Shown in pieces: positions 1,014 to 40,218 of a DNA stretch of 64,000 bases; the first letter of the stretch is position 1, and each line of letters begins with the position of its first letter. A program made the translations under genes and the position numbers. This DNA comes from an uncultured virus (IMG/VR IMGVR_UViG_3300027724_000009) (lineage: Duplodnaviria; Heunggongvirae; Uroviricota; Caudoviricetes): the IMG/VR virus record IMGVR_UViG_3300027724_000009. One strand, 5' to 3'. The notes under the pieces were generated by a model. The model worked only from the letters and a program-made list of their open reading frames with translations. It had not been told where the DNA came from and did no database searches.

Positions 1014-1022
1014 CCTTGCACA

Positions 1023-1148: not shown

Positions 1149-1378
1149 GGTGCAGTGCTTCTCAGAAATTCAAAAATATGATTGAAATAATAACAGAAAA
1201 AGTAGAAATGCCAAGTCTAAGCACCAAAAGAAGGTTTCAAAAGATTTGCATAAATAACAAATGGGAAGTAATAGACACACATAATGAAAATAAGACAAGA
1301 TATAAAGGTGCTTATGAAGATGTGATGATTGCTTGTCATAATTTGAATAAGAAATTTTATCGTGACGGTGTCGTTTAG
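1121..1378 (+). CDS. Hypothetical cassette protein (start may be 1178)
   Basis: ORF fills the span between cassette inverted repeats. Confidence 0.6.
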   Translation: MPCFWQYLVRCSASQKFKNMIEIITEKVEMPSLSTKRRFQKICINNKWEVIDTHNENKTRYKGAYEDVMIACHNLNKKFYRDGVV

Positions 1379-1433
1379 CATTGCACCTAACTGCTGTTAT
1401 AAGAAGTGCGGTTAATTAAACGATAAATTTAAT

Positions 1434-4635: not shown

Positions 4636-5469
4636 ATGAGTTACAGAGTACCAACACCAAACACAAATTTCGACCTTGAAACAACAGGAACGAACGTATT
4701 AACTGATAGAATCGTACAGATTGCATTGGTTTACACAAACAGTATCGGAATGAGAGATACAAGAAATATCCTCATTAATCCCGGAATACCTATACCGGTA
4801 GATGCAACAGACGTACATGGCATAACAGATGAAATGGTGAAAGATGCATCGACGTTTCCTGAAATAGCAAACGACATCTTTCAGTACATGGTAGATGTTA
4901 CGTTGATAGGCTTCAATATTAAGAATTTTGACATTCCATTACTGAAAGAGGAGTTCAAAAGATGTGGTATTGATTGGGATGTACCAAAAGATATTATCGA
5001 CGTGTTCCAAATGGATAAAGCATTGTACCGTCGTACCCTGAATAACGTTTACAAGCAACATACCGGTTTAGATATTGACGGAGCGCATGATGCTTTAAAT
5101 GATGTATATGCAGTAGATGTAATCCTGCAGTCCATGGTTAAATATAATAATACCGAAGTACAAAATTTTTTAACAACAAGTAAGGACCAGGTGGATATAG
5201 CCGGTAAGTTCTTATTGGATGAGGTAGGAAATATCGTATTCGGATTTGGTAAGTTTCAGGGTAATCAAGTAAGTAAACATATCCAATACGTGCAATGGAT
5301 GAACCAACAGGAATTTTTTACTGCAGATACAAAAGACTTCTGTAAAAAAATATTGGCCGGAGCATTTCGTGTTGAGCAGCTGACAAATAAACCTGCAGAG
5401 GTAGTGGATGAGGCCAAAGAAAAAATATTGAGAGATTTAGAAAACGCTGAAGTAGATCCGTTCGCATGA
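4636..5469 (+). CDS. DEDDh 3'-5' exonuclease (DNA Pol III epsilon-like)
   Basis: FDLETTG, VHGITDEMV, GFNIKNFD, AHDALND; C-terminal FGFGKFQG. Confidence 0.9.
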   Translation: MSYRVPTPNTNFDLETTGTNVLTDRIVQIALVYTNSIGMRDTRNILINPGIPIPVDATDVHGITDEMVKDASTFPEIANDIFQYMVDVTLIGFNIKNFDIPLLKEEFKRCGIDWDVPKDIIDVFQMDKALYRRTLNNVYKQHTGLDIDGAHDALNDVYAVDVILQSMVKYNNTEVQNFLTTSKDQVDIAGKFLLDEVGNIVFGFGKFQGNQVSKHIQYVQWMNQQEFFTADTKDFCKKILAGAFRVEQLTNKPAEVVDEAKEKILRDLENAEVDPFA

Positions 5470-6047
5470 CAACAGATGTAACCGCATACGACAACTGCAT
5501 ATCTACCTATTCAGGTTTGAGGTTTGATTTTATCAATCCACGTCCTGACATGGTGAACGTATTGGATATATGCAAAGGATTAGCCAATAAGCCACATTTT
5601 TCAGGACAAACACCGGAGTTCTTTAGCATTGCAGAGCATTGCATACTCGTTGAGAGTTTGCTACCTTATGACGCAGAGCCGGAGGAACGTTTATGTGCAT
5701 TGATACATGACGGTAGTGAGGCTTACCTGCCTGACATGATTAAACCGATAAAGCTATTACTACCATTATTCAAGGACATTGAGGATGGAGTACAGTCGTG
5801 TATTTTCGATTATTTTGGTTTGGATGAGCGTTACATGAAAAGAATTAAGAAATACGATATTATGGCACAACAGATTGAGTATAACGTATTTTATTTTAAT
5901 CATGCAACTTTAGCTAATAATTACCATATTTGTTATCTGAAACCCAAAGATGCATATTTAGCCTACATCAAACGTTTATTCTACATTTTACAAACTATAA
6001 AATACGACAGTAATGGCACTAAAAAAAAGTATTCAATCATTCAGTAA
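5466..6047 (+). CDS. HD-domain phosphohydrolase (YfbR/YfdR-like 5'-deoxynucleotidase)
   Basis: FSIAEHC, LIHDGSEAYLPDMIKPIK. Confidence 0.85.
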   Translation: MTTDVTAYDNCISTYSGLRFDFINPRPDMVNVLDICKGLANKPHFSGQTPEFFSIAEHCILVESLLPYDAEPEERLCALIHDGSEAYLPDMIKPIKLLLPLFKDIEDGVQSCIFDYFGLDERYMKRIKKYDIMAQQIEYNVFYFNHATLANNYHICYLKPKDAYLAYIKRLFYILQTIKYDSNGTKKKYSIIQ

Positions 6048-7599
6048 CGTCGAATCTATTGAGATTGACAAAATAGTACACAATGGGAACTATCGAAAAC
6101 ATATTGACGAGGAGAAAATCATTGAATTAGCAGAATCAATGAAATCGGTGCAACTTCTGCATCCGATTATGGTAAGAGATACCGGCAAAGGTAAATATCA
6201 TTTAGTATTTGGTGAGCGTAGGTTGTTGGCTGCGAAGTCCCTGGGTTGGGAAAAAATTGACTCCCGAATTATTCAGAATGTAAAACCTGATAAGTTAGTA
6301 GAGATACAGCTGATAGAAAACGTGCAGAGAGAGCAACCACACCCTATTGACGAGAGTGAAACGTTTGTGCAGTTGACGAAAATAACCTCCGTAGAGCAGA
6401 TTGCATCAACCATTGGTGTATCGGAGCAGTATGTATATGACCGAATACACTTAAAGAGCCTGAATGCAGAGATAAAGCGTTTATTTAAAGACAGCCACAT
6501 TACCCTCCACCATTGTTTACAGTTTGCAAAATTGCAAAACGCAAAACAGTTGGAACTTCTCGAACGTATAAAGTACAATGTACCATACAATGAAAAGGAG
6601 GGAGAACACCGGTTTGCATACCGTTCAGTGAAAGAAATGCGACGTATCATTGAAAAGGAGTTTGTATGCTTACTGACAAAGGCACCTTTTGACATTGAGG
6701 ATAAAAGATTGAATAAAAGCGCCGGCAGTTGTATTAACTGCATGAAACGTTCTGGAGCCAACAGGACATTGTTTGGTGACGTGCAGAGCGACGATTTGTG
6801 TTTTGATACCAAATGTTTTTGGAAGAAAACGTCTGCAAAGCTGACTACATTAGAGAAACAGTTAGTGGATGCAGGTAATACCGTTATCCGTATAGATACG
6901 TCTTTAATTCCGGATGAGAATGAGCACGAAAACCTGGTATCACTTACAGAGGTACATCAAATTCCTGAAAATGAAGTAGATAACATCGATTCCAAGTTAT
7001 TCGGTATCATCTTCAGTTCAGACAATATTCAGTTGTTAGGTACAGTAATTAAACTTTATGAGAAAGTGCCTGAAGTTAATGAAGTGGAAACAATAATACA
7101 TAATGAACCGGTTAAAGCGACTGTTACGCCTAGTCAAAAGCGTATGGAAAACGTTAAAATAAAGAATGGCCGTATTTCCCTTAAAAATAAACTGAAAGAG
7201 GAGGTTGGTTTTATGTTAGGAGCAAAAGAATTGGATAAAATGCCTGTTTCAATCCTGAAAATGCTATTTTATAATATCATTGCATTCAATGAGGTATCTG
7301 AATTGTTGGAAAATTTAAAATGGAAATATGACGGAATGCCGGTGAATAGTCCTGAAATTATAGAGTTGGACATTATGAAACTTGTCAATGAGAACGTCAA
7401 TAATCAGTCGTATGAGCGAGTTTTAATGGAAATGATGATATTTATTGTATTCGTGACTATTGAGAACAATCAGGTGTATGAAAGCACATTTAAACCGATT
7501 TTTGAATTAGCCAAAGATATAGGTGTAGATGTGGAGGCATTGGAAAATACAACATCTGAAGATTTTGCCATTACAATTCAGCAATTATTGAATGAGTAA
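6013..7599 (+). CDS. ParB/RepB/Spo0J family protein with Cys-rich domain
   Basis: LLHPIMVR, VFGERRLLAA, LIENVQRE; GSCINC..LC....CF. Confidence 0.88.
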   Translation: MALKKSIQSFSNVESIEIDKIVHNGNYRKHIDEEKIIELAESMKSVQLLHPIMVRDTGKGKYHLVFGERRLLAAKSLGWEKIDSRIIQNVKPDKLVEIQLIENVQREQPHPIDESETFVQLTKITSVEQIASTIGVSEQYVYDRIHLKSLNAEIKRLFKDSHITLHHCLQFAKLQNAKQLELLERIKYNVPYNEKEGEHRFAYRSVKEMRRIIEKEFVCLLTKAPFDIEDKRLNKSAGSCINCMKRSGANRTLFGDVQSDDLCFDTKCFWKKTSAKLTTLEKQLVDAGNTVIRIDTSLIPDENEHENLVSLTEVHQIPENEVDNIDSKLFGIIFSSDNIQLLGTVIKLYEKVPEVNEVETIIHNEPVKATVTPSQKRMENVKIKNGRISLKNKLKEEVGFMLGAKELDKMPVSILKMLFYNIIAFNEVSELLENLKWKYDGMPVNSPEIIELDIMKLVNENVNNQSYERVLMEMMIFIVFVTIENNQVYESTFKPIFELAKDIGVDVEALENTTSEDFAITIQQLLNE

Positions 7600-9591: not shown

Positions 9592-10641
9592 ATGGAAAGC
9601 GTAAACGATTTTAAGTTAGAAGATTTACTCTCATATAATTGGCTATTGTCGAAAGGGTACGTTATTTCTCTGCCTGAAAAGGACAACAAGTTTGCAATAG
9701 TATTCGTGGCCCGGATTCTGTACCGGCAGGTACCCAGAGGCAAAAACATGACTGCATCTAAAAATCTATCAAAGGTAATGGACGTTACCACTCGTACACT
9801 GTACAAGTATATCGATTGCGGATTTGCAATAGATAAGATTTTCAAGGATGCTACTTACCTGAAGTACACGAAAGAACGTAACGACATATTCACAAAGCCA
9901 TTTATATGCAGGATAATCGATAAGTCAACAAAGCAGGAAATAGTGGAGTTTGATGTAACGATACAAACTTTGTACGACAGTAACCTAATCGTGGATATTT
10001 CGGAGGCTGACAAAGCTGACAAGCCGAAATTGGATATGAGGAAAATAATTCAACTCCGGAATGATATACTGAATGAGGATATCGTGGAATTGAATGATAC
10101 CAACAGGGAGGACATGGAACGGTTGGCAATGCATATTTGCGAGGTATTCGGTACAGGATGCGTGACAATAACTGAAGCGTGTGACAGGTACAATGTAAAT
10201 TACCTCACATGGATTGATTGGTTGAGAAAGAATGCCTACATACGGCAGATGTACGAGGAGGCGTGTAGAGCGGCCGCACTCATTAACCACACCCGGCAGT
10301 TATCGTTGGTAGATAACAGGCTGAATGCATTACTGAATAATGGATTTGTGGAGGAAACAACATTCACGTATGACAAAGTATTCCTGCCAGGCAGGTTAGA
10401 GCCGGTATATCGGGAGAAAACAAAGGTAGTCCGTCGCAGGGATTTAGATTTATCTCAACTTGCAATGATAAAAGGTATGTTATACCGTAGTTTAATCAGT
10501 TTACCTCCGTCCGATCCCGACGACTTCAGTAATTGGAGCACAGAGGAAATATTAAATTACGTCAACAGTATGGACGATACAGAAAAAATGGATAAATTGA
10601 GTGTAATTCAGACAGAGATATTGAAAAATCCTCCTGAATAG
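9592..10641 (+). CDS. HTH protein, possible terminase small subunit
   Basis: ITEACDRYNVNYLTWIDW..YEEA and GFVEET pattern resembling TerS; second HTH near the N terminus. Confidence 0.45.
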   Translation: MESVNDFKLEDLLSYNWLLSKGYVISLPEKDNKFAIVFVARILYRQVPRGKNMTASKNLSKVMDVTTRTLYKYIDCGFAIDKIFKDATYLKYTKERNDIFTKPFICRIIDKSTKQEIVEFDVTIQTLYDSNLIVDISEADKADKPKLDMRKIIQLRNDILNEDIVELNDTNREDMERLAMHICEVFGTGCVTITEACDRYNVNYLTWIDWLRKNAYIRQMYEEACRAAALINHTRQLSLVDNRLNALLNNGFVEETTFTYDKVFLPGRLEPVYREKTKVVRRRDLDLSQLAMIKGMLYRSLISLPPSDPDDFSNWSTEEILNYVNSMDDTEKMDKLSVIQTEILKNPPE

Positions 10642-12755: not shown

Positions 12756-13151
12756 ATGAAGAAATCTTTAGTACAAATCTTGTGTTTCTTACTGTTATCA
12801 GTAACACTCACAAGTGTAAGTTTTGCACAGGATGAATCGCCCGGAAAGGTGAGTACCTATGCAACTTATCAGCCAAAAATTACGGTGCATTCCGTAGAAG
12901 TTTGTAATGAGGTTATGGAATACAGTTTCGACTGTCCCGAATCCTATTCATTCACTCCATTGCAGGAGCCGGTGGCAAAGATTTTTACCGGCAGTATGGA
13001 ACTAAGTAACGCAGATCACGCAAAAGCACAATGTAAAGCTGATAGTAAGGTCGGGTGGCAAAGATTAATTCTAAACTCCTCAATAAATAAAGTATTACTT
13101 GCCGACATAGCCAATAGTGGAACAGGAACGTCTTACCATTACCGGTGTTGA
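12756..13151 (+). CDS. Secreted protein
   Basis: Sec signal ending SFA-QD. Confidence 0.65.
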   Translation: MKKSLVQILCFLLLSVTLTSVSFAQDESPGKVSTYATYQPKITVHSVEVCNEVMEYSFDCPESYSFTPLQEPVAKIFTGSMELSNADHAKAQCKADSKVGWQRLILNSSINKVLLADIANSGTGTSYHYRC

Positions 13152-13185
13152 GTGAGCCAAAAAAAACAAAGTTAAAAACATTTAG

Positions 13186-13213
13186 AAGATGCGACGAAAG
13201 TTGCATCTTTTTT
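13186..13213 (+). terminator. Intrinsic terminator
   Basis: AAGATGCGAC-GAAA-GTTGCATCTT plus T tract. Confidence 0.8.
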
Positions 13214-13262
13214 ATTTTGTATAGTTGTATAAAATAATTATTTTTACAGAAATAAAACCAAC

Positions 13263-13937
13263 ATGGCAAAGAATAACGGCAACAACAAAAAAGAGCAAAC
13301 TCCTCCTGCAGAGCAGGAAGATTTGCAGTTAAAAAAAATGAAGATTTCAGATTTGGTGCACGATGCAAAGAATGCAAACAAAGGTACTGACAACGGTAAG
13401 GCAATGATAAAAAAATCTATTGAGAGCAATGGTTTAGGCCGTTCAATACTCATAGATAAGAACAATCAAATCATTGCAGGAAACAAGACAACATCAAATG
13501 CAGAGGAGCAGGGATATGACGACGTGGTGGTTGTAGAAACTACCGGCAATACCCTGGTTGCAGTGAAGCGTATGGATATTGACTTAGATACTCCGGAGGG
13601 CAGGGAATTGGCATTGGCTGACAACCGTACATCTGAAATGAATTTGAATTGGGATAAGGATATCCTGAAAAACGTATTCAGTCCTGAAGTATTGGAGAAA
13701 TACAGTATGTCACTCGAAAAGAAAAAAGTGGAGGTGAATACTCAACGGTACCCGATAGTTCCGAAATTCGATGAGAGTTATCATGCGATCATTATTATTG
13801 CGAAATCTGAAACACAGTTATCATTTTTAAAAACCGCATTGAGTTTAGAAACCGAGAAGTCTTACAAGAATGACAGTACAGGCACCGGTTATGTAATAGA
13901 TGCAGAAAATTTCAAAAACAAATGGGAGGCGAAATAG
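13263..13937 (+). CDS. ParB/Srx-like N-terminal domain protein of the type found in phage DNA-modification loci
   Basis: NAN..SIESNGLGRSILID.NNQIIAGN..LALADNRTSE..WD. Confidence 0.7.
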   Translation: MAKNNGNNKKEQTPPAEQEDLQLKKMKISDLVHDAKNANKGTDNGKAMIKKSIESNGLGRSILIDKNNQIIAGNKTTSNAEEQGYDDVVVVETTGNTLVAVKRMDIDLDTPEGRELALADNRTSEMNLNWDKDILKNVFSPEVLEKYSMSLEKKKVEVNTQRYPIVPKFDESYHAIIIIAKSETQLSFLKTALSLETEKSYKNDSTGTGYVIDAENFKNKWEAK

Positions 13938-14668
13938 ACATCAAAGTAGTAATACCGACTGCAGGTAGATACGATACCATTACCACACATAAGGTGGTTG
14001 ATAACTGCATACTATGTGTACCTGAAGAACAGGAAAAATTCTACCGAGTATCGTGCCCGGACACAGAAATAGTTACGCATCCTCCACTTGTTGGATTAGG
14101 AGCAAAACGTAATTGGATATACGAAAAGTTCGGCCATGTGTTTATGTTAGATGATGATTGCAAAGGAATGCGTAGAATGTACTCTGAAAATAAGGAGCAG
14201 GATAAAGTGGATAGCAAAACTGCATACGATTTAATTCAGTTCACAGGCAATATGTGCCACATGGCAGGGTTGTATGTATTCACGTTCAACAGATACGCTC
14301 AACCTAAAAACTATCATGGACATTCACCGATTAAACTGAAATGATTAGTGTACGGCCAAGCTATGGGTTGGTTGGCAGGTTCCAAGATTAAGATGCGGAA
14401 TGACATCAAATGCAATAACGATATTTATCTGTCATTGATGAATGCGTACAAGCATAGAATGATATGGCAGGACGAGCGTTTCACGTTTGACTTCTATGGA
14501 TATGGCGGCAATAAAGGTGGCCTGGCATCCGTCCGTACTGAAGAAGTGGAGAAAAATGATTTTCTTTTACTTAAAGAAATGTTTGGTGATGCAGTTGCTA
14601 CCAAAAAAGGAACGTGGGATAAGAAACCTAAAAAGCCTTATGAATTAGTAATTAAATTGCCGTATTAA
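13922..14668 (+). CDS. GT-A fold glycosyltransferase (TAGT/GREB1-like) interrupted by in-frame TGA at 14342-14344
   Basis: VVIPTAGR, GLGAKRNWI, FMLDDD, C-terminal NND and GNKGGL; ORFs 13922-14344 and 14348-14668 share a frame. Confidence 0.7.
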
Positions 14669-14671
14669 GAC

Positions 14672-15313
14672 ATGATAACACACGACTACAAACTGATTTA
14701 TATTCATATTCCTAAGTGTGCAGGACGCAGTATTACCGATATGTTTAATCAACGTTTCGACCATTGTACTGCACAATACTATCAGAATGAATATCCTCGT
14801 CAATTCAAGCAATATGACGTGTTTACGATAGTACGGAATCCGTATGACAGGTACGTTTCAATGTGGAACTACATTAAAAATCACAGACGGCACCAAAAGG
14901 AGGACATCTACAATCAGTATTTCGACGACGACCGGTATGATTTTAAGCATTGGCTACTGAAAAATATCTTTGCGTACAAAGGTGGTTATCCTGCAACAAG
15001 TGCAGAGGGTGGACGTGGATTTGACGATAAGATAGGCAGTGCATTTTGGTTCAGTTCACAGTATTCCAGGTTGAGTAATTGGAATAAGAGCCTAATTGTG
15101 CCAAATGTATTCCACTTTGAGAAAATGGATGAGGTTTATAATTTCTTATCAGAGCGTATGGAACAAGTAGCAGCAATACCACATCTTAACCAATCGAAAC
15201 GTAAAGAATGGACGTATTATTACGATGATGAAATAATCGAACACCTACATAAGTTTCAGCCATTTTTAACGGATATAGAAAAGTTAGGATATGAACTACT
15301 TAGAGAAGTATGA
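14672..15313 (+). CDS. Sulfotransferase family 2 (PAPS-dependent)
   Basis: 5'-PSB YIHIPKCAGRSI; 3'-PB FTIVRNPYDRYVS; PHLNQS; D.EKLGY. Confidence 0.88.
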   Translation: MITHDYKLIYIHIPKCAGRSITDMFNQRFDHCTAQYYQNEYPRQFKQYDVFTIVRNPYDRYVSMWNYIKNHRRHQKEDIYNQYFDDDRYDFKHWLLKNIFAYKGGYPATSAEGGRGFDDKIGSAFWFSSQYSRLSNWNKSLIVPNVFHFEKMDEVYNFLSERMEQVAAIPHLNQSKRKEWTYYYDDEIIEHLHKFQPFLTDIEKLGYELLREV

Positions 15314-16391
15314 TTACCTCATTGTAGGTTCCGGTTTATTCGGAAGTACGTTTGCAGAGCGGATGCACAGGAAAGGCAAACGAGTTCTCATTATTGAGAA
15401 ACGTAACCATATCGGAGGCAACGTATGGACGGAAGAAATGAATGGTATTCACGTCCATAAGTACGGCCCTCACATATTCCACACCAACTCCGAGGACGTA
15501 TGGACATACGTTAACCGGTTCTGCAAGTGGAGGCAGTTTCAGTATTCACCGATTGCCAATTACAACGGAGAACTGTATTCACTACCATTTAACCTCCACA
15601 CGTTCTATCAATTCTATGGTATCAAAACTCCTGCAGAACTTCAGAGTAAGATTGAGCAGATCACGTCGAAGTATCAGAAACCGAGTTATGATAACGTGGA
15701 GGATTTCGCATTAGCTATGTTGGGAGAGGACTTATACCGAAAGCTGATTTATGGATACACAAAAAAGCAATGGAATGCAGAGCCGGTAACAATATCCAAA
15801 AGCATCATTGCCCGGCTACCAATACGGCAGATGTTCGACAGTAATTATTTTAACGATTTGCACCAAGCAATACCGGTAGGTGGTTATGCTGAATTGGTAA
15901 CGAACATGACAAAGAAAATTGAAGTTATAAAAAACACCGATTTTCTTTCAGCAAAAAAAGAATTTGAAAATATTGCAGAGAAAGTGATTTACACAGGCAG
16001 TATCGATGAGTATTACGGTTACGAATTGGGTGAACTTGAATACCGTAGTTTGAGATTTGAAACGGAGCAGCTGCCAACGGAGAACTACCAGGGCGTGGCC
16101 GTTATGAATTACACAGATGAGCACACTCCATTTACGAGAGTGATAGAGCATAAACATTTTGAACGGATGCAATCTAAAAGCACCGTTATCACTAAGGAGT
16201 TTCCTGCTGAATGGAAAAAAGGTATGGAACGTTTTTATCCTGTCAATACTGAAATGAATAATGCGTTACTTCAGAAATATAAAAAAATAACAAATAAAAA
16301 TACATTATTTGGAGGTCGTTTAGGTAGTTATCAGTATTACAATATGGACCAAATTATTGCATCTGCATTAAAGCTATCAAATAGTTTATAA
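15291..16391 (+). CDS. glf: UDP-galactopyranose mutase
   Basis: GSGLFG FAD motif, HIGGN, HKYGPHIFHT, YRSLRFE, TRVIEHKHF, GRLGSYQYYNMDQ. Confidence 0.96.
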   Translation: MNYLEKYDYLIVGSGLFGSTFAERMHRKGKRVLIIEKRNHIGGNVWTEEMNGIHVHKYGPHIFHTNSEDVWTYVNRFCKWRQFQYSPIANYNGELYSLPFNLHTFYQFYGIKTPAELQSKIEQITSKYQKPSYDNVEDFALAMLGEDLYRKLIYGYTKKQWNAEPVTISKSIIARLPIRQMFDSNYFNDLHQAIPVGGYAELVTNMTKKIEVIKNTDFLSAKKEFENIAEKVIYTGSIDEYYGYELGELEYRSLRFETEQLPTENYQGVAVMNYTDEHTPFTRVIEHKHFERMQSKSTVITKEFPAEWKKGMERFYPVNTEMNNALLQKYKKITNKNTLFGGRLGSYQYYNMDQIIASALKLSNSL

Positions 16392-16420: not shown

Positions 16421-16464
16421 TTTGCATATAGCCAAACTTTTGTTTAAATTTGTGGTAGCAACAA
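16421..16464 (+). promoter_or_regulatory. Promoter with TAGCAACAA leader
   Basis: TTTGCA..TAAATTTG..TAGCAACAA. Confidence 0.65.
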
Positions 16465-16479: not shown

Positions 16480-17094
16480 ATGCACTTAACAACAGTACAA
16501 GGGTATGGGTTCTTTGAATGCAGTTCTGCATTTCAAAAATCAATACGTCGTGGCGACGAAACAAACGCACTCTACTTTGCAGTAGAACTCTTTAATTCAG
16601 GGTACGATGAGTACGTTTGGAAACGTATGAAAGTAATCACCTCTGAAGACATTGGATTAGCCGAGCCGAATGCTCCTGCTATCATTCAATCGTTATACGA
16701 AATGTATAATGATGCGAAAGCCAAAAAGCACGAAAAAATGCCTCAACGTTTGCACTATGTACACGCAATTATGTATTTGTGCAGATGCAAAAAATCACGT
16801 CTAATTGATTGGACCATGATTGCATTATGGAGAGAGCATAAATTAGAGAAACGTGAAGTTCCGGATTTTGCATTTGATATGCATAACGCAAAAGGCAAAC
16901 AGAAAGGCAGAGGTATCGACCATTTCTACAATGACGGTACGGAGTTGACAAATCACGTTCCGCAGGACGGTGAAGAAGAATGGAAACAGAAAGCATGGAA
17001 ACTCCATAAGGAGCATCCATTACCCGACCTGCCTGTAAAAAAAGAGAAAGGCAAAAAGAATGATTTATTTGATAACCAAAATTCGGAGGTATGA
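16480..17094 (+). CDS. Stand-alone MgsA/RarA C-terminal-like domain protein
   Basis: SAFQKSIRRGD..ALYF...SEDIGLAEP; no Walker A. Confidence 0.75.
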   Translation: MHLTTVQGYGFFECSSAFQKSIRRGDETNALYFAVELFNSGYDEYVWKRMKVITSEDIGLAEPNAPAIIQSLYEMYNDAKAKKHEKMPQRLHYVHAIMYLCRCKKSRLIDWTMIALWREHKLEKREVPDFAFDMHNAKGKQKGRGIDHFYNDGTELTNHVPQDGEEEWKQKAWKLHKEHPLPDLPVKKEKGKKNDLFDNQNSEV

Positions 17095-18335: not shown

Positions 18336-18400
18336 TTTGCATATTTGCAAACTCTTTTGTATTTTTATCGTAGCAACAACAAATTTTTTAACCAATAAAT
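18336..18400 (+). promoter_or_regulatory. Promoter and leader TAGCAACAACAAA..AACCAATAAA
   Basis: Same architecture as the other phage promoters. Confidence 0.6.
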
Positions 18401-18408
18401 TAAAAGTC

Positions 18409-20028
18409 ATGTTTGACAAAGAATTTTACCCTACTCCAAAGCATGTAATTACTAAGATGTTACAGCCTTATATGGACCAAAAAAAGCGAGTTTATGGTGG
18501 AACTGCAAATTACTTTACCGACATATCAATACTCGAACCGTCTGCCGGTAAGGGCGACATCTTAGACTACATTAACGACAAGTTTTCAGGTAAGAGAGCC
18601 GGATTGCGGTACTACTGCATTGAACGCAACCAAGATTTGACGCATATCCTGAATGAGAAAGACTACCGAGTAATAGCGCATGATTTCCTGCAGTATTCCG
18701 GAGATTACTATTTCGATTTTATCATTATGAACCCTCCGTTCTCGAATGGCGACGAGCACCTGCTGAAAGCGTGGGACGTATTACGTGGAGGAGATATCGT
18801 ATGCTTACTGAATACCGAAACGTTAACCAATCCGAACACAGAGCGGAAACAACATCTGCTGAAGCTGATTGAAAAGCATGGTAGTTTTGAGCATTTGGGA
18901 GCGGTATTTGCTGACAGTGAACGGCCAACCAATGTAAGAGTGAGCATGGTACGCCTCCACAAAGTTGAGGAGGAAAGTGCATTCAACTTCAAATTTGAGA
19001 AAGTTACAAAGGAATCACAGTTCGACCTGAATGAAGATATTTTGGGTAACGAAATTGCCCGAAAGGATTTGGTAGGTAACATGATGCTTCAGTACGACGA
19101 ATTGCGTAAGGCATACATTGACTACAATAAAGCAAGGAGCCGGGTATCATTCTACTCCAATGGCCTTATGACACAGTATTGCAGTATTTTCAAAGACGTA
19201 ATTGATAAACTTAATCAGAATACATTACGTGGTGACTATAATCAGTTTTGCGATCTCGTCAAAAAAGAGATATGGCGTGTGATATTTGGTAAGATTGATA
19301 TGGATAAATACATGACGCATGATGTACGTCAAAACTTCTCCAAGTACATTGACAAACAGGGAGCAATGGATTTTACCAAAGAGAACGTGGCCCAGGTTGT
19401 AGAAATGCTATTCACCAACAGATTTACGATTTTAGATAAGGCCGTAATTGATGTATTCGACATCTTTACAAGGCACCACAAAGAAAACCGGTATCTAATC
19501 GAGGGTTGGAAAACGAATGACAAATGGAAAGTAAACCGTAAGGTTATCCTGCCATATTACGTTAAGTACGGTGAGTACATGAGCCAACATGACCTGAAAC
19601 AGTTTGGAGATAAATTCAGTATCTCATATCACAGAGCGAGCGAGTACACCGACATTGATAAAGTGATGTGCTACATTACAGGGAAAGATTTTAAAAACTG
19701 CACTACTATTTCGGAGGCATTAAAAGATAGTTTCCAAAGGTTAGGCCATGTGAAAAATGAGAAGTTTGACAATACCTGCACAAGCACGTTCTTTAATATC
19801 CGATTTTTCAAAAAAGGTACAATACACATAGAATTTCGGGATGCTAAGTTGTGGGAGCAGTTCAATCTTATGGCGTGTGCCGGGAAGAAGTGGTTACCGG
19901 AAACAGAGCAACGTGAATACGATGCTAAAATGCAGTATCGTGAAGAACCTGAACTAACTATAACACCGAAAATGATTGAGGCAAATTTGGAGCCAATAAC
20001 GGCACAATTCGAGTTGAATTTTGTATAA
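18409..20028 (+). CDS. Class I SAM-dependent DNA methyltransferase with DUF4942-like C-terminal domain
   Basis: FYPTP, ILEPSAGKGD, IIMNPPF; FNIRFFKKGTIHIEF. Confidence 0.85.
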   Translation: MFDKEFYPTPKHVITKMLQPYMDQKKRVYGGTANYFTDISILEPSAGKGDILDYINDKFSGKRAGLRYYCIERNQDLTHILNEKDYRVIAHDFLQYSGDYYFDFIIMNPPFSNGDEHLLKAWDVLRGGDIVCLLNTETLTNPNTERKQHLLKLIEKHGSFEHLGAVFADSERPTNVRVSMVRLHKVEEESAFNFKFEKVTKESQFDLNEDILGNEIARKDLVGNMMLQYDELRKAYIDYNKARSRVSFYSNGLMTQYCSIFKDVIDKLNQNTLRGDYNQFCDLVKKEIWRVIFGKIDMDKYMTHDVRQNFSKYIDKQGAMDFTKENVAQVVEMLFTNRFTILDKAVIDVFDIFTRHHKENRYLIEGWKTNDKWKVNRKVILPYYVKYGEYMSQHDLKQFGDKFSISYHRASEYTDIDKVMCYITGKDFKNCTTISEALKDSFQRLGHVKNEKFDNTCTSTFFNIRFFKKGTIHIEFRDAKLWEQFNLMACAGKKWLPETEQREYDAKMQYREEPELTITPKMIEANLEPITAQFELNFV

Positions 20029-22591: not shown

Positions 22592-22972
22592 ATGGATTTA
22601 TCTGAAGCATTCGAACATCTACTCGAAAATGTAGATAAGAACAAATATACCAAAGGAACGGTAGCAAGTTGGAAGAACCGATTTAATGCGAACAAGCTAT
22701 CCTATGAAAAAATGCATGAGTTGTTGCTCGATAACAATTACAAGTGTTTTAAGAGCGATGAGGTTTGGTTGCAACCTGGCTCCGACAAGCCGTATGAGTT
22801 TGCGGTATTGGATAAGGATGAGATTTTGATTTACAAAGAAATATTCGCATCTTCAAAGTCTGAAGCAACAAACAAATTGAAAGCGGAGAATTATATCCTG
22901 CTGAATGACCTAAGTAATAAAAAACGGATTGAAAGTATAGTAAATTTGCTCAATGTATTTCAAAACTCGTAA
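22592..22972 (+). CDS. Hypothetical protein upstream of TerL
   Basis: Overlaps TerL start. Confidence 0.55.
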   Translation: MDLSEAFEHLLENVDKNKYTKGTVASWKNRFNANKLSYEKMHELLLDNNYKCFKSDEVWLQPGSDKPYEFAVLDKDEILIYKEIFASSKSEATNKLKAENYILLNDLSNKKRIESIVNLLNVFQNS

Positions 22973-24596
22973 AGAATTAGCATTAATCGAATTAGCCAAA
23001 CGTCGAAAGATTGGTAACTACCAAGAACGGCCTGATTTATGGTTGAGTGAAAGATTTGGTGAGCCATTGAGCGTACTGAAGTGGAGTGAATTTGAGGGAT
23101 ATGAGAACCATAAATGGGACGGCACCGTAGATCCGTTCATGTCTGCCTGTAAAGCATTGACGGCCCGGAAGTGGGTTGGAATTGAAAGCGCAACTTCAGT
23201 AGGTAAAACATATTGCCTACCACGCATCATTTATTGGTTTTTAGACACGTTCCCAAACTCGCTTGTAATTACTACTGCTCCGAAAAAAGACCAACTAAAA
23301 AAGATTCTATGGACGGAAATGGGGAATGCATACCATAAGTTCAAAAAGATACGGCCACACTCCGAATTTATTACCCTGAATATTGCAGTTGATAAGCGTA
23401 CCAAAAAAACCTCCACACAGAAAGTTGATGATAGCATTGAGGGAGGAATGGGTTGGGAGGTATTAGGTATCGTTTCCGGTGTGGCCGCAGGTGAGGATTC
23501 AGCGACCAAAATGCAGGGTTTTCACAGGGAGAATATGTTATTTGTCATTGACGAAATGGCCGGTGTGCATCCTGCAGTATTGACGGCAATCATTAATACG
23601 TGTACGGCACCAAATAACCTGATTATAGGCGTAGGCAATCCCGATAGCCAAATTGATACCCTGCATACGTTCTGTCAGTTGAAAAAAACAGAGCATATTA
23701 TTGTATCTGCATACGACCACCCGAACGTTGTGAATAAGCGAATGATAATACCAGGTGCAGTATCAGTTGAGAGTATCGACATGAGAAAGGAGGAATACGG
23801 AGAGGAAAGTAACTTCTACAAAAGTCGTGTACGTGGTATTGCTCCGGAGGAGGGAACCGGCTCATTATTCAGAGCGGAGTATATAGACCAATGCTACATA
23901 TACAATAAGGATAAGTTTCATGGCAATCCTGAAAAGATTGGTAATAATGCCGTCGGAGTGGACGTAGCAAACAGTGAGCAGGGTGACATGGCTTGTTTAG
24001 CATGGGGTAAGGGTAACAAATTATTTCAGTTGCAGGAGTTCCAATGTGATAACGCCACACATCTTGCGTATAACATGATGTACGATACGCATGAATTGGC
24101 ACGTTTTGGTTATAAGAACTACAATACCCTGAAGATTAAGGATTACAAGATACACGACCGTAATATCGGTATTGATACGGTAGGTGTTGGTGTAGCTACT
24201 ATCAATGCATTCTATGACAAAAGAAAAGATGTGGTTGCACTTATCGGAGGCCAACTTCAGGAGGCTTTAAATTTGGATAATGACGGCAATCCGCTTTATA
24301 ACTTTCAGAACTTACGTTCTCAAATGTACTTTGAGTTCAGGGAAGATTTGCGTACCAATGGCGTAATTTTAGATCTCGACAAAAAGACATTCCTGAAACT
24401 TAAAAAAGAACTGTTAGCACACACATACAAAGTTTCCGGAGGTAAGATATTTGTGGAATCAAAGGACGATATTAAAAAGAAACTCGGTGGAAAATCTCCG
24501 AACCTATCAGATAGTGCAGTTTATTGGAATTTCGTTCGTAAAAACTACTACAAAAAAACTATGTCATTACCGTTTTCAGGTAGCGCAAAGAAATAA
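22953..24596 (+). CDS. terL: Terminase large subunit
   Basis: Walker A SATSVGKT, Walker B FVIDEMAG, GNP, nuclease GVDVA, IDTVGVG, SPNLSDS. Confidence 0.92.
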   Translation: MYFKTRKELALIELAKRRKIGNYQERPDLWLSERFGEPLSVLKWSEFEGYENHKWDGTVDPFMSACKALTARKWVGIESATSVGKTYCLPRIIYWFLDTFPNSLVITTAPKKDQLKKILWTEMGNAYHKFKKIRPHSEFITLNIAVDKRTKKTSTQKVDDSIEGGMGWEVLGIVSGVAAGEDSATKMQGFHRENMLFVIDEMAGVHPAVLTAIINTCTAPNNLIIGVGNPDSQIDTLHTFCQLKKTEHIIVSAYDHPNVVNKRMIIPGAVSVESIDMRKEEYGEESNFYKSRVRGIAPEEGTGSLFRAEYIDQCYIYNKDKFHGNPEKIGNNAVGVDVANSEQGDMACLAWGKGNKLFQLQEFQCDNATHLAYNMMYDTHELARFGYKNYNTLKIKDYKIHDRNIGIDTVGVGVATINAFYDKRKDVVALIGGQLQEALNLDNDGNPLYNFQNLRSQMYFEFREDLRTNGVILDLDKKTFLKLKKELLAHTYKVSGGKIFVESKDDIKKKLGGKSPNLSDSAVYWNFVRKNYYKKTMSLPFSGSAKK

Positions 24597-24625: not shown

Positions 24626-27085
24626 ATGGGTTTTCTCGACGATTTCGGAAATATAGTATTGAGGTATGCGTTTGGTGAGCATAAGAATAACCAAGCACAA
24701 ACTACTGCAAAGCCTACTGTTATTAAGGCTAAGACGGAGCCGGGATTTATGCCTGTTGGTAATGTCAGAAGTAGTGTAGAATCGGGTGCCTCCACGTTTG
24801 CACCGACCGGAAAATTGCAGGAAATAAAGCCTGATTTTGCTATTGAATATCTATCTACCATTGAAAATTTGGCCGCATTCAATCCGGATATCTCTTATGG
24901 ATTAGACAACATTGTTACGTTGGGTAATACAGAGCACGATATTTACTTCTCCGATAAGATACCTGAAAGTAAGCAATCTGAAATGCGTAATTACCTATTA
25001 GAGCAGGAGCGAACGTGGTACGGATTTAGTGGAGGAGTGAGAAGTTTGAAAGGAGATTTACTCACACAGATTGTGATAAATGGTGCACTATCTGCAGAGG
25101 CCGTTCCACGAGAAGATTTAACTGCCATTAAGAAAATCGTTCGTGTATCTCCAAAGCACATACGTTTCATATACGACAAAGAGGCCGATGAATTTTATCC
25201 GTATCAGAATGTAAATATTTTGAGTAAAGCGAGTAGTGATTATCCAGGCAAAGTAAAGCTGAATACGACCACATACAAGTACATTGCTTACCGCAGATAC
25301 TTTGAAACTCCGTATGCAGTTCCTCCGTTTATTACGGCCATTGAAGCGTTATGCATTCAGCGTCCAATGTTAGCCAACTTCAAAAACATCATGGATAAAA
25401 TGGGTATGCTCGGTTTTCTTACTGCAACAGTAACGTCACCGGAGCAGAACGACGGAGAGGACGATACCGAATATTGGAACCGTTGCGTTGAGTATTTGGA
25501 CAAGTACATTTATCCGCAGATGCAGAAGAATTTATCTTCAGGATTAGTTGTAGGATTTAAAGATGCACATGAGTTCAAGTTGGAGGGAAACAATATGAAC
25601 GTGGCAGGAGCCGACGGATTGGTACAGTTAGTTCAGTTAATGATATTTGCAGGTTTGAAACAAGATCCGAATATGTTAGGCCGTAACTATTCCACTACCG
25701 AAACGTTCGGGCGTGTTATCCTCGAAAAAATGCTATCTCAAATCAGAGATTATCAAAGTTTAGTGGACCAATTCTTTAGCGAGATTTACACGATTGCATT
25801 GCGTTTGAAAGGCTATGAACCTGGGTATGTGAAAGTAGTCAGTAAACCTCCGATGATTAATGACAGGCTGAAAGATGCACAGGCTGAAACTGCAGAAATA
25901 TCGAATGTATTGGCGAAACGTAATGCCGGTATCATTGGACAAAAGAAAGCGGCCAATGAGTTAGGGTACGATGAGCCGGAAACAGAAGATTTCGAAATTC
26001 CCGGACAACAGACAGATGCAGGTACCACTCCACCTGCAGAAAAAAAAAAGGTAGCACCGGCCAATAACAGTAGCGAGTTAATCGATTACTATGAACAGAA
26101 ATTAGGAGTGGATATTCCTGAATGGAGTTACGAATGCAACCTGCCACACGTTAAGAAAATATACAACTTTGACGGAACAGACTTTGGTGACAAGAAAACG
26201 AATAGCCTATCTACTGCATACATCAAAGAAACAGGCAAGGTATTCAATAAAGCCATTGATAAAGTTTCCAATGCCGTAGGAGCAAAGTTTGATAAGTACA
26301 ATGAAAATACTGCCTTAAACGATATCCAAAACGAAGTATGGTTAACAATACTGTCAAAGTGGGATAGCAACTTTGTGGTACCAATGAATGACGTTATCAA
26401 ACGTAACGTGGAGGCGATATACAACAACTTCAGGAAAGACAAAAAAGCATTCGGTAATACTAAGACTACATCTGCCAACCAACAGAAGTTTGCATCTGCA
26501 GACGATATTCCTGAAGCAGTATTCTCGCTGAAAGATTATCGTACCATTGAATACATGGAGCAACACGACAATATGTATTTGGGTAAGTTCATTACTGATA
26601 AAGATACCAAAGCCAGGGTGTATAAATACATTGAGGCCAACTACATTGACGGCAATCTGCCTATAGGTAAAAACAAATCAGAGATACAGAAATTTATCGA
26701 TGCATTCCGGGAGCAGTTATCTTTAGAGGCTTGGAAGATTCGACGTATTATTGATACTTCAGTAACGAAACTAAAATCGTTCGGGCACCTGCGGTATCTT
26801 TCACAGGCCGAGATAGAAAAATTCGAGGTGATTGAATTAATCGACAACGTTACGTGCCCGTATTGCGAACACATGGACGGCATGGAGTTCAGCGTCGAAA
26901 CGGCAGTCAGCACGATAGACGATGAGATCAGTGCAGGTCCCGGGAAGTTGGCAGCAACGAGTCCGTTTGCGACGACGTATAAAATCGATGCGTTCAAAAA
27001 ATTAACGCAGGAAGATTTGGAGAGTAGCAATATCGTAAAGCCTCCGTTTCATCCGCATTGCCGAGGCCGTTTGGTATCTGTCTAA
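24626..27085 (+). CDS. Portal protein fused to MuF (Phage_Mu_F) head morphogenesis domain
   Basis: Follows TerL; C-terminal TCPYCEHMDG ... PPFHPHCRGRLV. Confidence 0.8.
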   Translation: MGFLDDFGNIVLRYAFGEHKNNQAQTTAKPTVIKAKTEPGFMPVGNVRSSVESGASTFAPTGKLQEIKPDFAIEYLSTIENLAAFNPDISYGLDNIVTLGNTEHDIYFSDKIPESKQSEMRNYLLEQERTWYGFSGGVRSLKGDLLTQIVINGALSAEAVPREDLTAIKKIVRVSPKHIRFIYDKEADEFYPYQNVNILSKASSDYPGKVKLNTTTYKYIAYRRYFETPYAVPPFITAIEALCIQRPMLANFKNIMDKMGMLGFLTATVTSPEQNDGEDDTEYWNRCVEYLDKYIYPQMQKNLSSGLVVGFKDAHEFKLEGNNMNVAGADGLVQLVQLMIFAGLKQDPNMLGRNYSTTETFGRVILEKMLSQIRDYQSLVDQFFSEIYTIALRLKGYEPGYVKVVSKPPMINDRLKDAQAETAEISNVLAKRNAGIIGQKKAANELGYDEPETEDFEIPGQQTDAGTTPPAEKKKVAPANNSSELIDYYEQKLGVDIPEWSYECNLPHVKKIYNFDGTDFGDKKTNSLSTAYIKETGKVFNKAIDKVSNAVGAKFDKYNENTALNDIQNEVWLTILSKWDSNFVVPMNDVIKRNVEAIYNNFRKDKKAFGNTKTTSANQQKFASADDIPEAVFSLKDYRTIEYMEQHDNMYLGKFITDKDTKARVYKYIEANYIDGNLPIGKNKSEIQKFIDAFREQLSLEAWKIRRIIDTSVTKLKSFGHLRYLSQAEIEKFEVIELIDNVTCPYCEHMDGMEFSVETAVSTIDDEISAGPGKLAATSPFATTYKIDAFKKLTQEDLESSNIVKPPFHPHCRGRLVSV

Positions 27086-27094
27086 TTTCCTGCA

Positions 27095-27374
27095 CTCCAC
27101 AAAAAAAAGAGAGATATAAGATGTAGTATTCAGAACTTTCGTTTTTAGAAATATTATTCAAAACATGATAGAGCATTTTTGAACCTGAAATATGGTACAA
27201 AAATGCTTTTTTTATTTTCCTTAACAATTTAGTAACAGTTTGTAACGAGTTGAAATAAGCGTACTTATGATTTTATTTTGAAAATAATGGTATTATAATA
27301 GTGCAGGATATTGCACAAAGCAAATATCCTGCATAGATTTACACTATCAAATTGAAATAACAACAAAAATAAAC
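27095..27374 (+). repeat. Island-leading regulatory element, copy 1 (similar to 40219-40510)
   Basis: Shared AAAAAGAGAGATATAAGATGTAG and GGATATTGCACAAAGCAAATATCCTGCATAGATTTACACTATCAAATT. Confidence 0.85.
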
Positions 27375-28032: not shown

Positions 28033-28055
28033 TCAAATCAAATAAAAAAAATAGC

Positions 28056-30063: not shown

Positions 30064-30065
30064 TT

Positions 30066-40208: not shown

Positions 40209-40218
40209 ATTTTATATC

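What the first reader, a model, noticed from the sequence alone, without database searches (positions are those of the whole stretch)
13263..16391. Candidate DNA hypermodification operon: ParB-like, glycosyltransferase, sulfotransferase and UDP-galactopyranose mutase
Seen: four tightly coupled genes behind one promoter (13216). Known: Glf makes UDP-galactofuranose; Sulfotransfer_2 enzymes use PAPS on sugars; ParB-like plus TAGT/GREB1-like glycosyltransferase pairs are described in predicted phage base-modification loci. Inference: the phage may attach a galactofuranose, possibly sulfated, to DNA bases, a chemistry I do not know to be described. No TET/JBP or hydroxymethylase is visible in the window, so the acceptor could instead be a virion protein or host surface glycan.
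Basis: partly seen in the sequence, partly recalled or inferred. Interest (0 to 1): 0.85.

Follow-up and report, generated by a model that had tools for sequence, protein, structure and literature searches.

The report
Phage ParB-glycosyltransferase sulfo-galactofuranose cassette, transferase broken
A sewage-sludge phage carries a coupled gene set (ParB-like helper, DNA-type sugar transferase, sulfotransferase, galactofuranose-making mutase) that probably puts a sulfated sugar on its own DNA, but in this genome the transferase is cut by a stop codon that other strains lack.

Summary
Other strains carry GGA there: the intact form is on 20 contigs, the truncated form on 32.

The transferase is a true TAGT (Pfam PF20691). 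Its model matches phage TAGT models far better than generic GT2 enzymes. Glf passes the NCBIfam equivalog cut-off, and the sulfotransferase keeps both PAPS-binding motifs.

In 45 dereplicated IMG/VR groups the conserved core is ParB-like + TAGT (43/45) + an MgsA_C-like protein (36/45), lying among anti-restriction genes. Sulfotransferase and Glf are an insert. The same sulfotransferase family recurs beside Glf in 4 of 5 phage lineages and with TAGT in at least 4 of 5, once flanking a DNA polymerase.

No thymidylate-synthase-like or TET/JBP enzyme was found in the window, in about 9 kb of flanks, or in 45 relatives (22 complete). The acceptor is therefore unknown.

Best reading (about 0.5): a ParB-assisted DNA glycosylation counter-defence cassette making sulfated galactofuranose, inactivated in this strain. 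This is a new variant of a known kind. The scan has noted similar ParB-TAGT cassettes on other DNA.

The parts
13184..13211 (+). terminator-like hairpin with T run, closing the upstream gene 12756-13151
   Evidence: 12-pair stem, T tail
13217..13233 (+). promoter-like motif TTGTATAGTTGTATAAA, one of four copies in the window
   Evidence: 4 matches (4582, 13217, 61128, 63209), 0.09 expected. The other three precede a pol-exonuclease gene, an SNF2 helicase gene and a Sak4-like gene.
13263..13937 (+). ParB-like protein: ParB/Srx nucleotide-binding domain plus a small conserved C-terminal domain, with no HTH domain
   Evidence: phrog_620 1.4e-21. Model pLDDT 72.6. Foldseek top hits are the pNOB8 ParB-N domain and ParB-CDP. 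The conserved C-terminal YPIVPK...SYK block is in alignment A3.
13922..14344 (+). TAGT glycosyltransferase, N-terminal 140 codons carrying the DDD motif, ending at the premature TGA
   Evidence: PF20691 6.2e-14. D77-D79 are invariant.
14342..14344 (+). in-frame TGA at the codon of invariant Gly141; GGA in other strains
   Evidence: Intact Gly allele P0017 is on 20 contigs and truncated P0012 on 32. T>G at 14342 in run X15.
14345..14668 (+). TAGT C-terminal part in the same frame (an ORF can be called from GTG 14348)
   Evidence: The read-through extends the TAGT match to residues 7-184 and the phrog_842 match to 6-232.
14672..15313 (+). PAPS-type sulfotransferase (Sulfotransfer_2), soluble
   Evidence: PF03567 1.9e-8. 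Invariant PKxxGRS and RNPxxRxxS blocks in 20 homologues. No hydrophobic segment.
15291..16391 (+). UDP-galactopyranose mutase (Glf)
   Evidence: PF03275 2e-72. TIGR00031 equivalog 376.4 bits against 303.75.
16421..16452 (+). TTTG-N20-TAAATTTG promoter-like site before the next gene (Bacteroidota-type consensus, recalled)
   Evidence: 7 matches in the window against 3.8 expected, so weak on its own
16480..17094 (+). MgsA_C-like protein, third member of the conserved core
   Evidence: PF12002 6.7e-11. Downstream of TAGT in 36 of 45 locus groups. Atlas hits.
18337..20028 (+). DNA methyltransferase with DUF4942; neighbouring anti-restriction cargo
   Evidence: PF13708 1.4e-35. Homologues lie in 10 of 81 related loci.

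Best explanation
This is a phage DNA sugar-modification (counter-defence) cassette.

The conserved core is a small ParB-like protein (nucleotide-binding domain plus C-terminal domain, no DNA-binding HTH), translationally coupled to a GT-A glycosyltransferase of the TAGT family, usually followed by an MgsA_C-like protein.

Inferred mechanism:
1. The ParB-like protein helps the transferase work on double-stranded phage DNA, as a ParB homologue does for a phage thymine dioxygenase.
2. In this lineage two genes are inserted between the transferase and the MgsA_C-like gene. Glf converts host UDP-galactopyranose to UDP-galactofuranose, the presumed donor.
3. A soluble PAPS-dependent sulfotransferase sulfates that sugar.

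The predicted product is a (sulfo)galactofuranosyl group on phage DNA that blocks restriction.

Shown here: gene identities, coupling, comparative linkage, and the nonsense allele. Inferred: the donor, the sulfation target, DNA as acceptor, and the ParB role.

In this genome the transferase is inactivated by GGA>TGA at invariant Gly141, while co-circulating strains keep it. That is the pattern expected if a defence that recognises the modified DNA selects for loss.
For: Transferase identity:
- TAGT membership by Pfam and PHROG.
- Model pLDDT 86. The 21 best BFVD matches (E 5e-15 to 6e-8, TM 0.62-0.81) are TAGT-type phage proteins, including the beta-glucosyl-HMC-alpha-glucosyltransferase of Klebsiella phage PKO111. 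GT2-like phage proteins follow at E above 6e-7.
- The best PDB matches are GT-A enzymes at about 2e-5, including TarP. The 2023 preprint reports the same top PDB hit for DNA-modifying phage GT-A enzymes.

Linkage:
- Across 80 IMG/VR loci forming 45 groups, ParB-like is directly upstream in 43/45 and MgsA_C-like is downstream in 36/45.
- Seeding from the ParB C-terminal motif, 77 of 80 loci have a TAGT starting within 200 nt. Many contigs are shared with the first set.
- Inserts between TAGT and MgsA_C carry ArdC, N6 methylases, a DUF4942 methylase, RadC, DUF932 and a second TAGT.
- Close sulfotransferase homologues fall into 5 lineages (window, L085 group, L086, L087/G049, L171). Glf is adjacent in 4, and TAGT is on the same contig in 4. 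The fifth contig is cut but has MgsA_C.
- In L085 the order is PIF1 helicase, sulfotransferase, Glf, TAGT, DNA polymerase A, TAGT, primase-helicase.

Other support:
- The promoter-like motif is shared with replication and recombination genes.
- All cassette proteins lack hydrophobic segments.

Literature:
- A ParB homologue (NBD + CTD, no DNA-binding domain) activates a phage T-dioxygenase on dsDNA, and 5mYOX contigs co-occur with GTs (31%) and ParBs (27%) (PMC13229309: abstract, sections 12-13).
- T2/T6 TAGT acts on DNA-linked glucose, and glucosyltransferase point mutants escape Brig1 (PMC13216743: passages).
- A phage Glf is proposed to feed DNA galactosylation in RL38J1 (PMC13326640: sections 28-29).
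Against: - No enzyme that makes a hydroxylated pyrimidine acceptor was found. No PF00303 or PF12851 hit, and no 2OG-oxygenase hit even at E up to 5, in the window, nor at E up to 0.01 in 3.6 kb and 5.6 kb of flanking DNA from near-identical contigs.
- PF00303 is in 0 of 45 related records (0 of 22 that are at least 90% complete). Tet_JBP is in 0 of 45, but that search had no positive control. Both are in 0 of 5 sulfotransferase/Glf contigs.
- Phage 5mYOX enzymes often escape PF12851 (PMC13229309, section 12), so absence is not proven.
- Many relatives are proviruses, which is unusual for heavily hypermodified genomes.
- A TAGT-family domain in human GREB1 glycosylates a protein (PMC7968844: listing and abstract only), so the family is not restricted to DNA.
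- The transferase is broken in this genome, so here the cassette cannot work as proposed unless TGA is read through.
- There are no chemical data of any kind.
Confidence: 0.5

Rival explanations
1. The cassette is real, but its acceptor is not DNA. The TAGT would glycosylate a protein (a phage or host protein, perhaps the MgsA_C-like or ParB-like neighbour) or a soluble or polymeric host molecule, and the sulfated galactofuranose would serve that target.
For: - No acceptor-preparing enzyme was found in the window, its flanks or complete relatives.
- The TAGT-family domain of GREB1 O-GlcNAcylates ER-alpha (PMC7968844, abstract).
- The closest solved folds include protein and teichoic-acid glycosyltransferases: ColGalT1, POMGnT1 and TarP.
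Against: - Strict coupling to a ParB-fold protein.
- Anti-restriction and DNA methylase neighbours.
- Position around a DNA polymerase in L085.
- Closest structural relatives are phage TAGTs, including a T-even-type DNA-sugar transferase.
- The promoter-like motif is shared with DNA-metabolism genes.
Confidence: 0.25
2. Sulfotransferase and Glf are an independent moron that alters a host surface polysaccharide (for example for superinfection exclusion). They lie next to the ParB-TAGT pair only because this region collects cargo.
For: - They sit in the variable slot between TAGT and MgsA_C, which holds unrelated cargo in other phages.
- Glf is common in prophage ends and capsule loci, for example the Streptococcus suis phages.
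- L088 has Glf with four sulfotransferase paralogues in a 167-kb contig without TAGT.
Against: - The same sulfotransferase family lies with TAGT on the same contig in at least 4 of 5 lineages, in three different gene orders. One is outside the ParB/MgsA_C context, next to two TAGTs and a DNA polymerase.
- No membrane protein, flippase or polymerase gene is in the operon, and all products are soluble.
- The sulfotransferase has no full-length match in 50,697 phage records; the only two hits cover about a third of it.
Confidence: 0.12
3. The TGA at 14342 is decoded, either as Gly under code 25 or by read-through, so the transferase is intact in this genome too.
For: - The TGA falls exactly on an invariant Gly, and TGA means Gly in NCBI table 25.
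- Of ORFs ending in TGA, 8 of 10 have a further TAA/TAG within 7 codons, against 17 of 59 for those ending in TAA.
Against: - Only one in-frame TGA occurs in about 19,000 codons of long ORFs, against 1,164 ordinary Gly codons.
- TGA ends 10 ORFs at the expected gene ends.
- Reading through the sulfotransferase stop adds 30 codons over Glf.
- TAG-ending ORFs show the same back-up pattern, 5 of 6.
- Near-identical strains have GGA.
Confidence: 0.07

Closest known systems
T2/T6 beta-glucosyl-HMC-alpha-glucosyltransferase, the characterised phage member of Pfam TAGT (PF20691)
   Same: Same Pfam family and PHROG. GT-A fold with DDD motif. A homologue from Klebsiella phage PKO111 is a top structural match.
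   Different: The T-even enzyme extends glucosyl-5hmC made by a dCMP hydroxymethylase and alpha-GT. Here there is no hydroxymethylase and no alpha/beta-GT. A ParB-like partner, Glf and a sulfotransferase are present instead, and sequence similarity is remote.
Phage 5mYOX (TET/JBP)-ParB-glycosyltransferase post-replicative hypermodification clusters (PMC13229309; bioRxiv 10.1101/2023.12.21.572611)
   Same: A ParB homologue with NBD + CTD and no DNA-binding domain sits next to a GT-A DNA glycosyltransferase. The family keeps an R...DDD...(E/N)D(Y/I) block; the published R...DDD...EDY/F motif is quoted, and the correspondence was read by eye, not aligned. TarP is the shared best PDB neighbour.
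   Different: The defining dioxygenase is absent. The ParB partner is coupled to the transferase rather than to an oxidase.
Rhizobium phage RL38J1 / Pootjesviridae galactosyl-5-hydroxycytosine pathway with phage Glf (PMC13326640)
   Same: A phage-encoded UDP-galactopyranose mutase is linked to DNA glycosyltransferase genes. Glf homologues of these phages match at about 39-40% identity.
   Different: RL38J1 has a 5hodCMP synthase (ThyA homologue); no sulfotransferase or ParB is mentioned in that paper (0 occurrences). No ThyA homologue was found here.
Human GREB1 TAGT-like domain (PMC7968844, abstract only)
   Same: Same glycosyltransferase superfamily name (TAGT/GREB1-like; the relationship is recalled from Iyer et al. 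2013, which could not be read).
   Different: It is a protein O-GlcNAc transferase in a large eukaryotic protein, with no phage context.
Carbohydrate sulfotransferases of Pfam Sulfotransfer_2 and PHROG 3347 ('galactose-3-O-sulfotransferase')
   Same: Family match and both PAPS-binding blocks.
   Different: A much shorter (about 210 aa), soluble phage clade. No solved relative by sequence. Acceptor unknown.

Membership tests
TAGT (PF20691) | Pfam model above its gathering score | tested here: met
   52.8 bits (N half) and 65.3 bits (read-through) against a cut-off of 27.5
TAGT (PF20691) | GT-A fold with acidic DxD-type motif | tested here: met
   Model pLDDT 86. GT-A matches in PDB. D77 D78 D79 invariant in 11 sequences.
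TAGT (PF20691) | closer to phage TAGTs than to GT2 LPS/capsule enzymes | tested here: met
   BFVD ranks 1-21 are TAGT-type (E 5e-15 to 6e-8). GT2-like proteins follow from E about 7e-7 upward.
TAGT (PF20691) | intact reading frame | tested here: not met
   TGA at codon 141 in the window. Intact in other strains.
TAGT (PF20691) | transfers sugar to DNA (a hydroxymethyl/hydroxy pyrimidine or a sugar already on it) | not testable with these tools
   Needs nucleoside mass spectrometry or an enzyme assay.
5mYOX- or ThyA-primed phage DNA hypermodification cluster | an enzyme that makes 5hmC, 5hmU or 5hoC | tested here: not met
   None in the window, the flanks, 45 related records or 5 sulfotransferase/Glf contigs. 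Divergent 5mYOX cannot be excluded.
UDP-galactopyranose mutase (Glf) | equivalog-level model match over the full length, with the FAD-binding GxGxxG | tested here: met
   TIGR00031 376.4 bits against 303.75. PF03275 2e-72 and NAD_binding_8. GSGLFG at residues 13-18.
PAPS-dependent sulfotransferase (Sulfotransfer_2) | family model above cut-off and both PAPS-binding blocks (5'-PSB PKxxGxS/T; 3'-PB RxPxxRxxS; motif definitions recalled) | tested here: met
   35.2 bits against 22. P14 K15 G18 R19 S20 and R55 N56 P57 R60 S63 are invariant in 20 homologues.
ParB-CTPase fold protein | ParB/Srx nucleotide-binding domain | tested here: met
   PHROGs 620, 8071 and 723. Foldseek hits to ParB N-domains, sulfiredoxin and SerK. 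No Pfam ParB_N hit.
Canonical chromosome/plasmid-partition ParB | HTH DNA-binding domain and a parA/parS context | tested here: not met
   No HTH_ParB hit. The 224-aa protein has only the NBD and a small C-terminal domain. The window's other ParB (6013-7599) does have HTH_ParB. No parA was seen in the operon.

The most novel reading that the evidence does not exclude
A ParB-dependent TAGT attaches galactofuranose, which a dedicated phage sulfotransferase then sulfates, directly to phage DNA that carries no hydroxymethyl or hydroxy pyrimidine. That would be both a new acceptor chemistry for DNA glycosylation and the first sulfated DNA modification. The natural GGA/TGA polymorphism would be a switch driven by defences that recognise the modification.
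Probability: 0.2. Interest if true: 0.9.

Novelty: new variant of a known kind. Interest (0 to 1): 0.6.

Why it matters
Phage DNA sugar modifications decide whether restriction enzymes, CRISPR and glycosylase defences work, and they supply tools for epigenomics.

All characterised routes start from a hydroxylated pyrimidine. This large ParB-TAGT-MgsA_C family lacks any recognisable enzyme for that step: at least 237 ParB-like clusters at 50% identity score E up to 1e-30. Either a new priming enzyme or a new acceptor is waiting to be found.

The sulfotransferase-Glf insert predicts a negatively charged, furanose-based adduct. I found no paper on such an adduct: searches returned 0 papers.

The co-circulating intact and nonsense alleles in wastewater give a natural on/off pair for testing the chemistry in existing long-read metagenomes.

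Tried and rejected
- Stop-codon recoding (code 4 or 25) was considered and rejected.
- Megablast of the region against 50,697 phage records gave no match.
- tblastn of the transferase found only two Clostridium phages at 25% identity among phages and nothing in plasmids.
- The nearest held record, G001, lies wholly inside the window (22338-45579) and adds nothing.
- Profile searches of the PDB by sequence found no relative for TAGT or for the sulfotransferase.
- A search for longer, fused forms of the TAGT found none; this is weak evidence. The top 150 ParB-like representatives are nearly all stand-alone proteins of 200-240 aa.
- The complex prediction of ParB-like with TAGT gave no verdict: 0.31 against a mark of 0.32. 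It is not used as evidence either way.
- Weak-threshold Pfam scans of 28 unannotated window proteins found no oxygenase.
- Walking outward gave 3.6 kb beyond the window's end (L264) and 5.6 kb before its start (L265). L265 diverges from the window after position 128 and may be a strain variant. Neither shows a ThyA- or TET-like gene at E up to 0.01. A further walk found no new contig.
- The raw-read run X21 held no reads of this phage.
- The sigma-70 consensus scan was below the shuffled expectation and is uninformative.
- No Rfam family and no tRNA were found in the window.
- Iyer et al. 2013, the origin of the TAGT name, is not held. Statements about it are recalled.
Full report
**What is there**

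The window is a contractile-tailed phage genome with all genes on the + strand and about 37% G+C. Portal, sheath, tube, baseplate, tape measure and endolysin genes were identified. It is abundant in activated-sludge and wastewater runs.

At the finding's coordinates lie:
- a ParB-like gene (13263-13937);
- a glycosyltransferase in two same-frame pieces (13922-14344 and 14348-14668);
- a sulfotransferase (14672-15313);
- Glf (15291-16391).

Neighbouring genes overlap by 16 and 23 nt or are 3 nt apart.

A terminator-like hairpin (13184-13211) precedes the motif TTGTATAGTTGTATAAA at 13217. That motif occurs 4 times in the window against 0.09 expected. The other three copies precede a polymerase-exonuclease gene, an SNF2 helicase gene and a Sak4-like gene. 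The cassette therefore appears to be expressed with DNA-metabolism genes. This is an inference from shared sequence.

A TTTG-N20-TAAATTTG site precedes the next gene. The Bacteroidota consensus is recalled, and the count of 7 against 3.8 expected is weak.

**Gene identities**

- *Transferase.* It belongs to Pfam TAGT: 52.8 bits for the N half and 65.3 bits when read through, against a cut-off of 27.5. It also matches PHROG 842, 'beta-glucosyl-HMC-alpha-glucosyltransferase', at 4.5e-22 across residues 6-232, which spans the stop.
- *Transferase structure.* A model of the intact allele (pLDDT 86) has as its 21 best BFVD matches TAGT-type phage proteins (E 5e-15 to 6e-8, TM 0.62-0.81). These include a T-even-type enzyme of Klebsiella phage PKO111, and generic GT2-like proteins score far worse. 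In the PDB it matches GT-A enzymes at about 2e-5, TarP among them.
- *Glf.* It passes the TIGR00031 equivalog cut-off.
- *Sulfotransferase.* It is above the Sulfotransfer_2 cut-off. The two PAPS-binding blocks are invariant across 20 homologues (motif definitions recalled).
- *ParB-like protein.* It has no Pfam hit but matches ParB PHROGs. A moderate model (pLDDT 72.6) matches ParB N-domains, sulfiredoxin and SerK. It has a nucleotide-binding domain and a small conserved C-terminal domain (YPIVPK...SYK) and no HTH domain.
- None of the proteins has a hydrophobic segment.

**The stop codon**

The TGA at 14342-14344 aligns with Gly141, which is invariant in 11 family members. It is the only place in the window where reading TGA through merges two ORFs of 60 aa or more. 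TGA ends 10 long ORFs normally, so a changed genetic code is unlikely.

The 90% cluster of this protein holds the truncated 140-aa form on 32 contigs and an otherwise identical 248-aa form with Gly on 20 contigs.

Laid contigs show T at 14342 in run X4, which may be the window's own source. They show G in a 2025 wastewater run, X15, on one low-depth contig with 7 differences in 277 nt.

This is therefore a natural nonsense/intact polymorphism. In this genome the transferase is most likely inactive.

An RNA library (X17) holds five identical pieces of the operon. That does not prove transcription.

**Comparative context**

A scan with a TAGT alignment gave 80 IMG/VR loci in 45 groups at 90% identity:
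- ParB-like lies directly upstream in 43 of 45 groups.
- An MgsA_C-like gene lies downstream in 36 of 45 groups.
- In 17 of those 36 the two genes are within 200 nt. In the other 19 a variable insert of 0.3-5 kb separates them.
- Of 46 insert proteins scanned, 7 are N6 methylases, 3 DUF932, 2 ArdC-N (one with a metallopeptidase), 2 SymE-like, 1 RadC, 1 DUF4942 methylase and 1 a second TAGT. This is an anti-restriction island.

Seeding instead from the ParB C-terminal motif, 77 of 80 loci have a TAGT starting within 200 nt. One of the other three is cut, and one has an ORF-call overlap. Many contigs are shared with the first set.

The ParB-like family is large. There are 237 clusters at 50% identity with E up to 1e-30, and nearly all of the best 150 are stand-alone proteins of about 200-240 aa.

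Among the 81 TAGT loci, Glf appears only in one other contig (L002/L013) and the sulfotransferase in none. In the window they are an insert in the variable slot.

**Are sulfotransferase and Glf tied to TAGT?**

The sulfotransferase belongs to a clade of about 60 proteins at 40-58% identity, each about 210 aa. It is almost absent from cultured phage records, with 2 partial hits.

Five lineages have usable context:

| Lineage | Gene order or content |
|---|---|
| Window | ParB-like, TAGT, sulfotransferase, Glf, MgsA_C |
| L085 group (complete 54.9-kb genome) | PIF1 helicase, sulfotransferase, Glf, TAGT, DNA polymerase A, TAGT, primase-helicase |
| L171 | ParB-like, TAGT, ..., MgsA_C, Glf (-), sulfotransferase (+) |
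| L086 | MgsA_C, ..., Glf (-), sulfotransferase (+); contig cut upstream |
| G049 (L165 + L087) | ParB-like, TAGT, ..., MgsA_C, methylase, sulfotransferase; no Glf |

Glf is adjacent in 4 of 5 lineages. TAGT is on the same contig in 4 of 5, and the fifth is truncated. Three different gene orders argue for a functional link and against hitch-hiking.

A distant sulfotransferase with Glf in a 167-kb contig (L088) has no TAGT. That counts on the other side.

**The missing acceptor step**

All characterised phage DNA glycosylations start from 5hmC, 5hmU or 5hoC. I found no thymidylate-synthase-like, TET/JBP or other 2OG-oxygenase gene in any of these:
- the window;
- 3.6 kb beyond its end and 5.6 kb before its start, taken from near-identical contigs (the upstream contig diverges from the window after position 128);
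- 45 related records, of which 22 are at least 90% complete;
- the 5 sulfotransferase/Glf contigs.

Caveats:
- The Tet_JBP search had no positive control.
- PMC13229309 (section 12) reports thousands of phage 5mYOX contigs without a TET/JBP annotation.
- Part of this genome is still unseen.

**Literature**

- *PMC13229309* (abstract, sections 12 and 13 read). A phage ParB homologue with NBD and CTD but no DNA-binding domain is required for a thymine dioxygenase to act on dsDNA. GTs (31%) and ParBs (27%) are the commonest neighbours of 5mYOX.
- *bioRxiv 10.1101/2023.12.21.572611* (passages). Phage GT-A enzymes with R...DDD...EDY/F motifs glycosylate 5hmC, resemble JGT and TarP, and about 65% of mined GT contigs lack a nearby 5mYOX or ThyS.
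- *PMC13216743* (passages). TAGT is the T2/T6 second-sugar transferase and has a GT-A fold. Solitary TAGTs occur in 288 of 753 phages. Point mutations in a glucosyltransferase let T4 escape the Brig1 glycosylase.
- *PMC13390438* (passages). T6-like phages carry a TAGT.
- *PMC13326640* (abstract, sections 28 and 29, passages). RL38J1 DNA carries galactosyl-5hoC, and a phage Glf is proposed to make UDP-galactofuranose.
- *PMC12704722* (passages). Phage ParB folds are often fused to DNA methyltransferases and bind CTP, ATP or GTP.
- *PMC7968844* (listing and abstract). GREB1 glycosylates a protein.
- Searches for TAGT + ParB + phage and for sulfotransferase + bacteriophage + hypermodification + DNA returned 0 papers.

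**Verdict**

The most likely function is a ParB-assisted TAGT cassette that decorates phage DNA, extended here to use galactofuranose and sulfate, and inactivated in this strain. I put this at about 0.5. A non-DNA acceptor is about 0.25, an unrelated surface-glycan moron about 0.12, and decoding of the TGA about 0.07.

It is a new variant of known phage DNA glycosylation clusters. The unprecedented elements are the sulfotransferase and the absence of any priming enzyme.

Earlier notes of this scan describe the same ParB-TAGT core on other DNA with other furanose mutases, sulfotransferase-like enzymes and amino-sugar tailoring enzymes. I did not check those loci. They are leads and not independent support.

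Noticed in passing
window 27085-27374 and 40214-40510: A roughly 290-bp intergenic element is present twice (78% identity). Its 3' part is nearly identical and includes the hairpin TGCAGGATATTGC...GCAAATATCCTGCA. One copy follows the portal gene and the other follows the tail-tube gene. No Rfam family matches.
   Followed up: partly
window, all + strand ORFs of 100 aa or more: ORFs ending in TGA (8 of 10) or TAG (5 of 6) have a second in-frame TAA/TAG within 7 codons, against 17 of 59 for ORFs ending in TAA. This suggests back-up stops behind weak terminators.
   Followed up: partly
window 4582, 13217, 61128, 63209: Four copies of TTGTATAnnnGTATAAA on the + strand (0.09 expected), each just upstream of a DNA-metabolism gene. 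This is probably the phage's early or middle promoter.
   Followed up: partly
window 1-2084 and L265 5043-6509: The window starts inside the 3' end of an MT-A70 methylase gene. A second MT-A70 copy lies at 1434-2084 (97% identical over 706 nt to the L265 copy), and the two flank an N6_N4 methylase. A near-identical contig has a different arrangement, so the methylase region varies between strains.
   Followed up: partly
window 9592-10641 and 22953-24596: A weak Sf6-type small-terminase match (E 0.0019) lies at 9592-10641. A 547-aa protein before the portal is likely the large terminase. The two bracket the cassette, so it lies within the packaging-gene region, as in other ParB-TAGT cassettes noted by the scan.
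   Followed up: no
window 27562-29189 and 30018-30602: RadC-like JAB protein, an LPD29 'polyvalent protein' domain protein and a DUF1281_C protein lie just after the portal. This is further candidate injected anti-defence cargo.
   Followed up: no
window 5466-6047 and 6013-7599: A dNMP phosphatase-like protein (phrog_318, 7e-41) lies next to a second, canonical-type ParB with an HTH domain (528 aa). The nucleotide-pool enzyme could bear on DNA composition.
   Followed up: no
L088 (167-kb IMG/VR contig): Four sulfotransferase paralogues and a Glf lie within 14 kb of a very large viral contig without TAGT. This may be a separate glycan-sulfation island.
   Followed up: no
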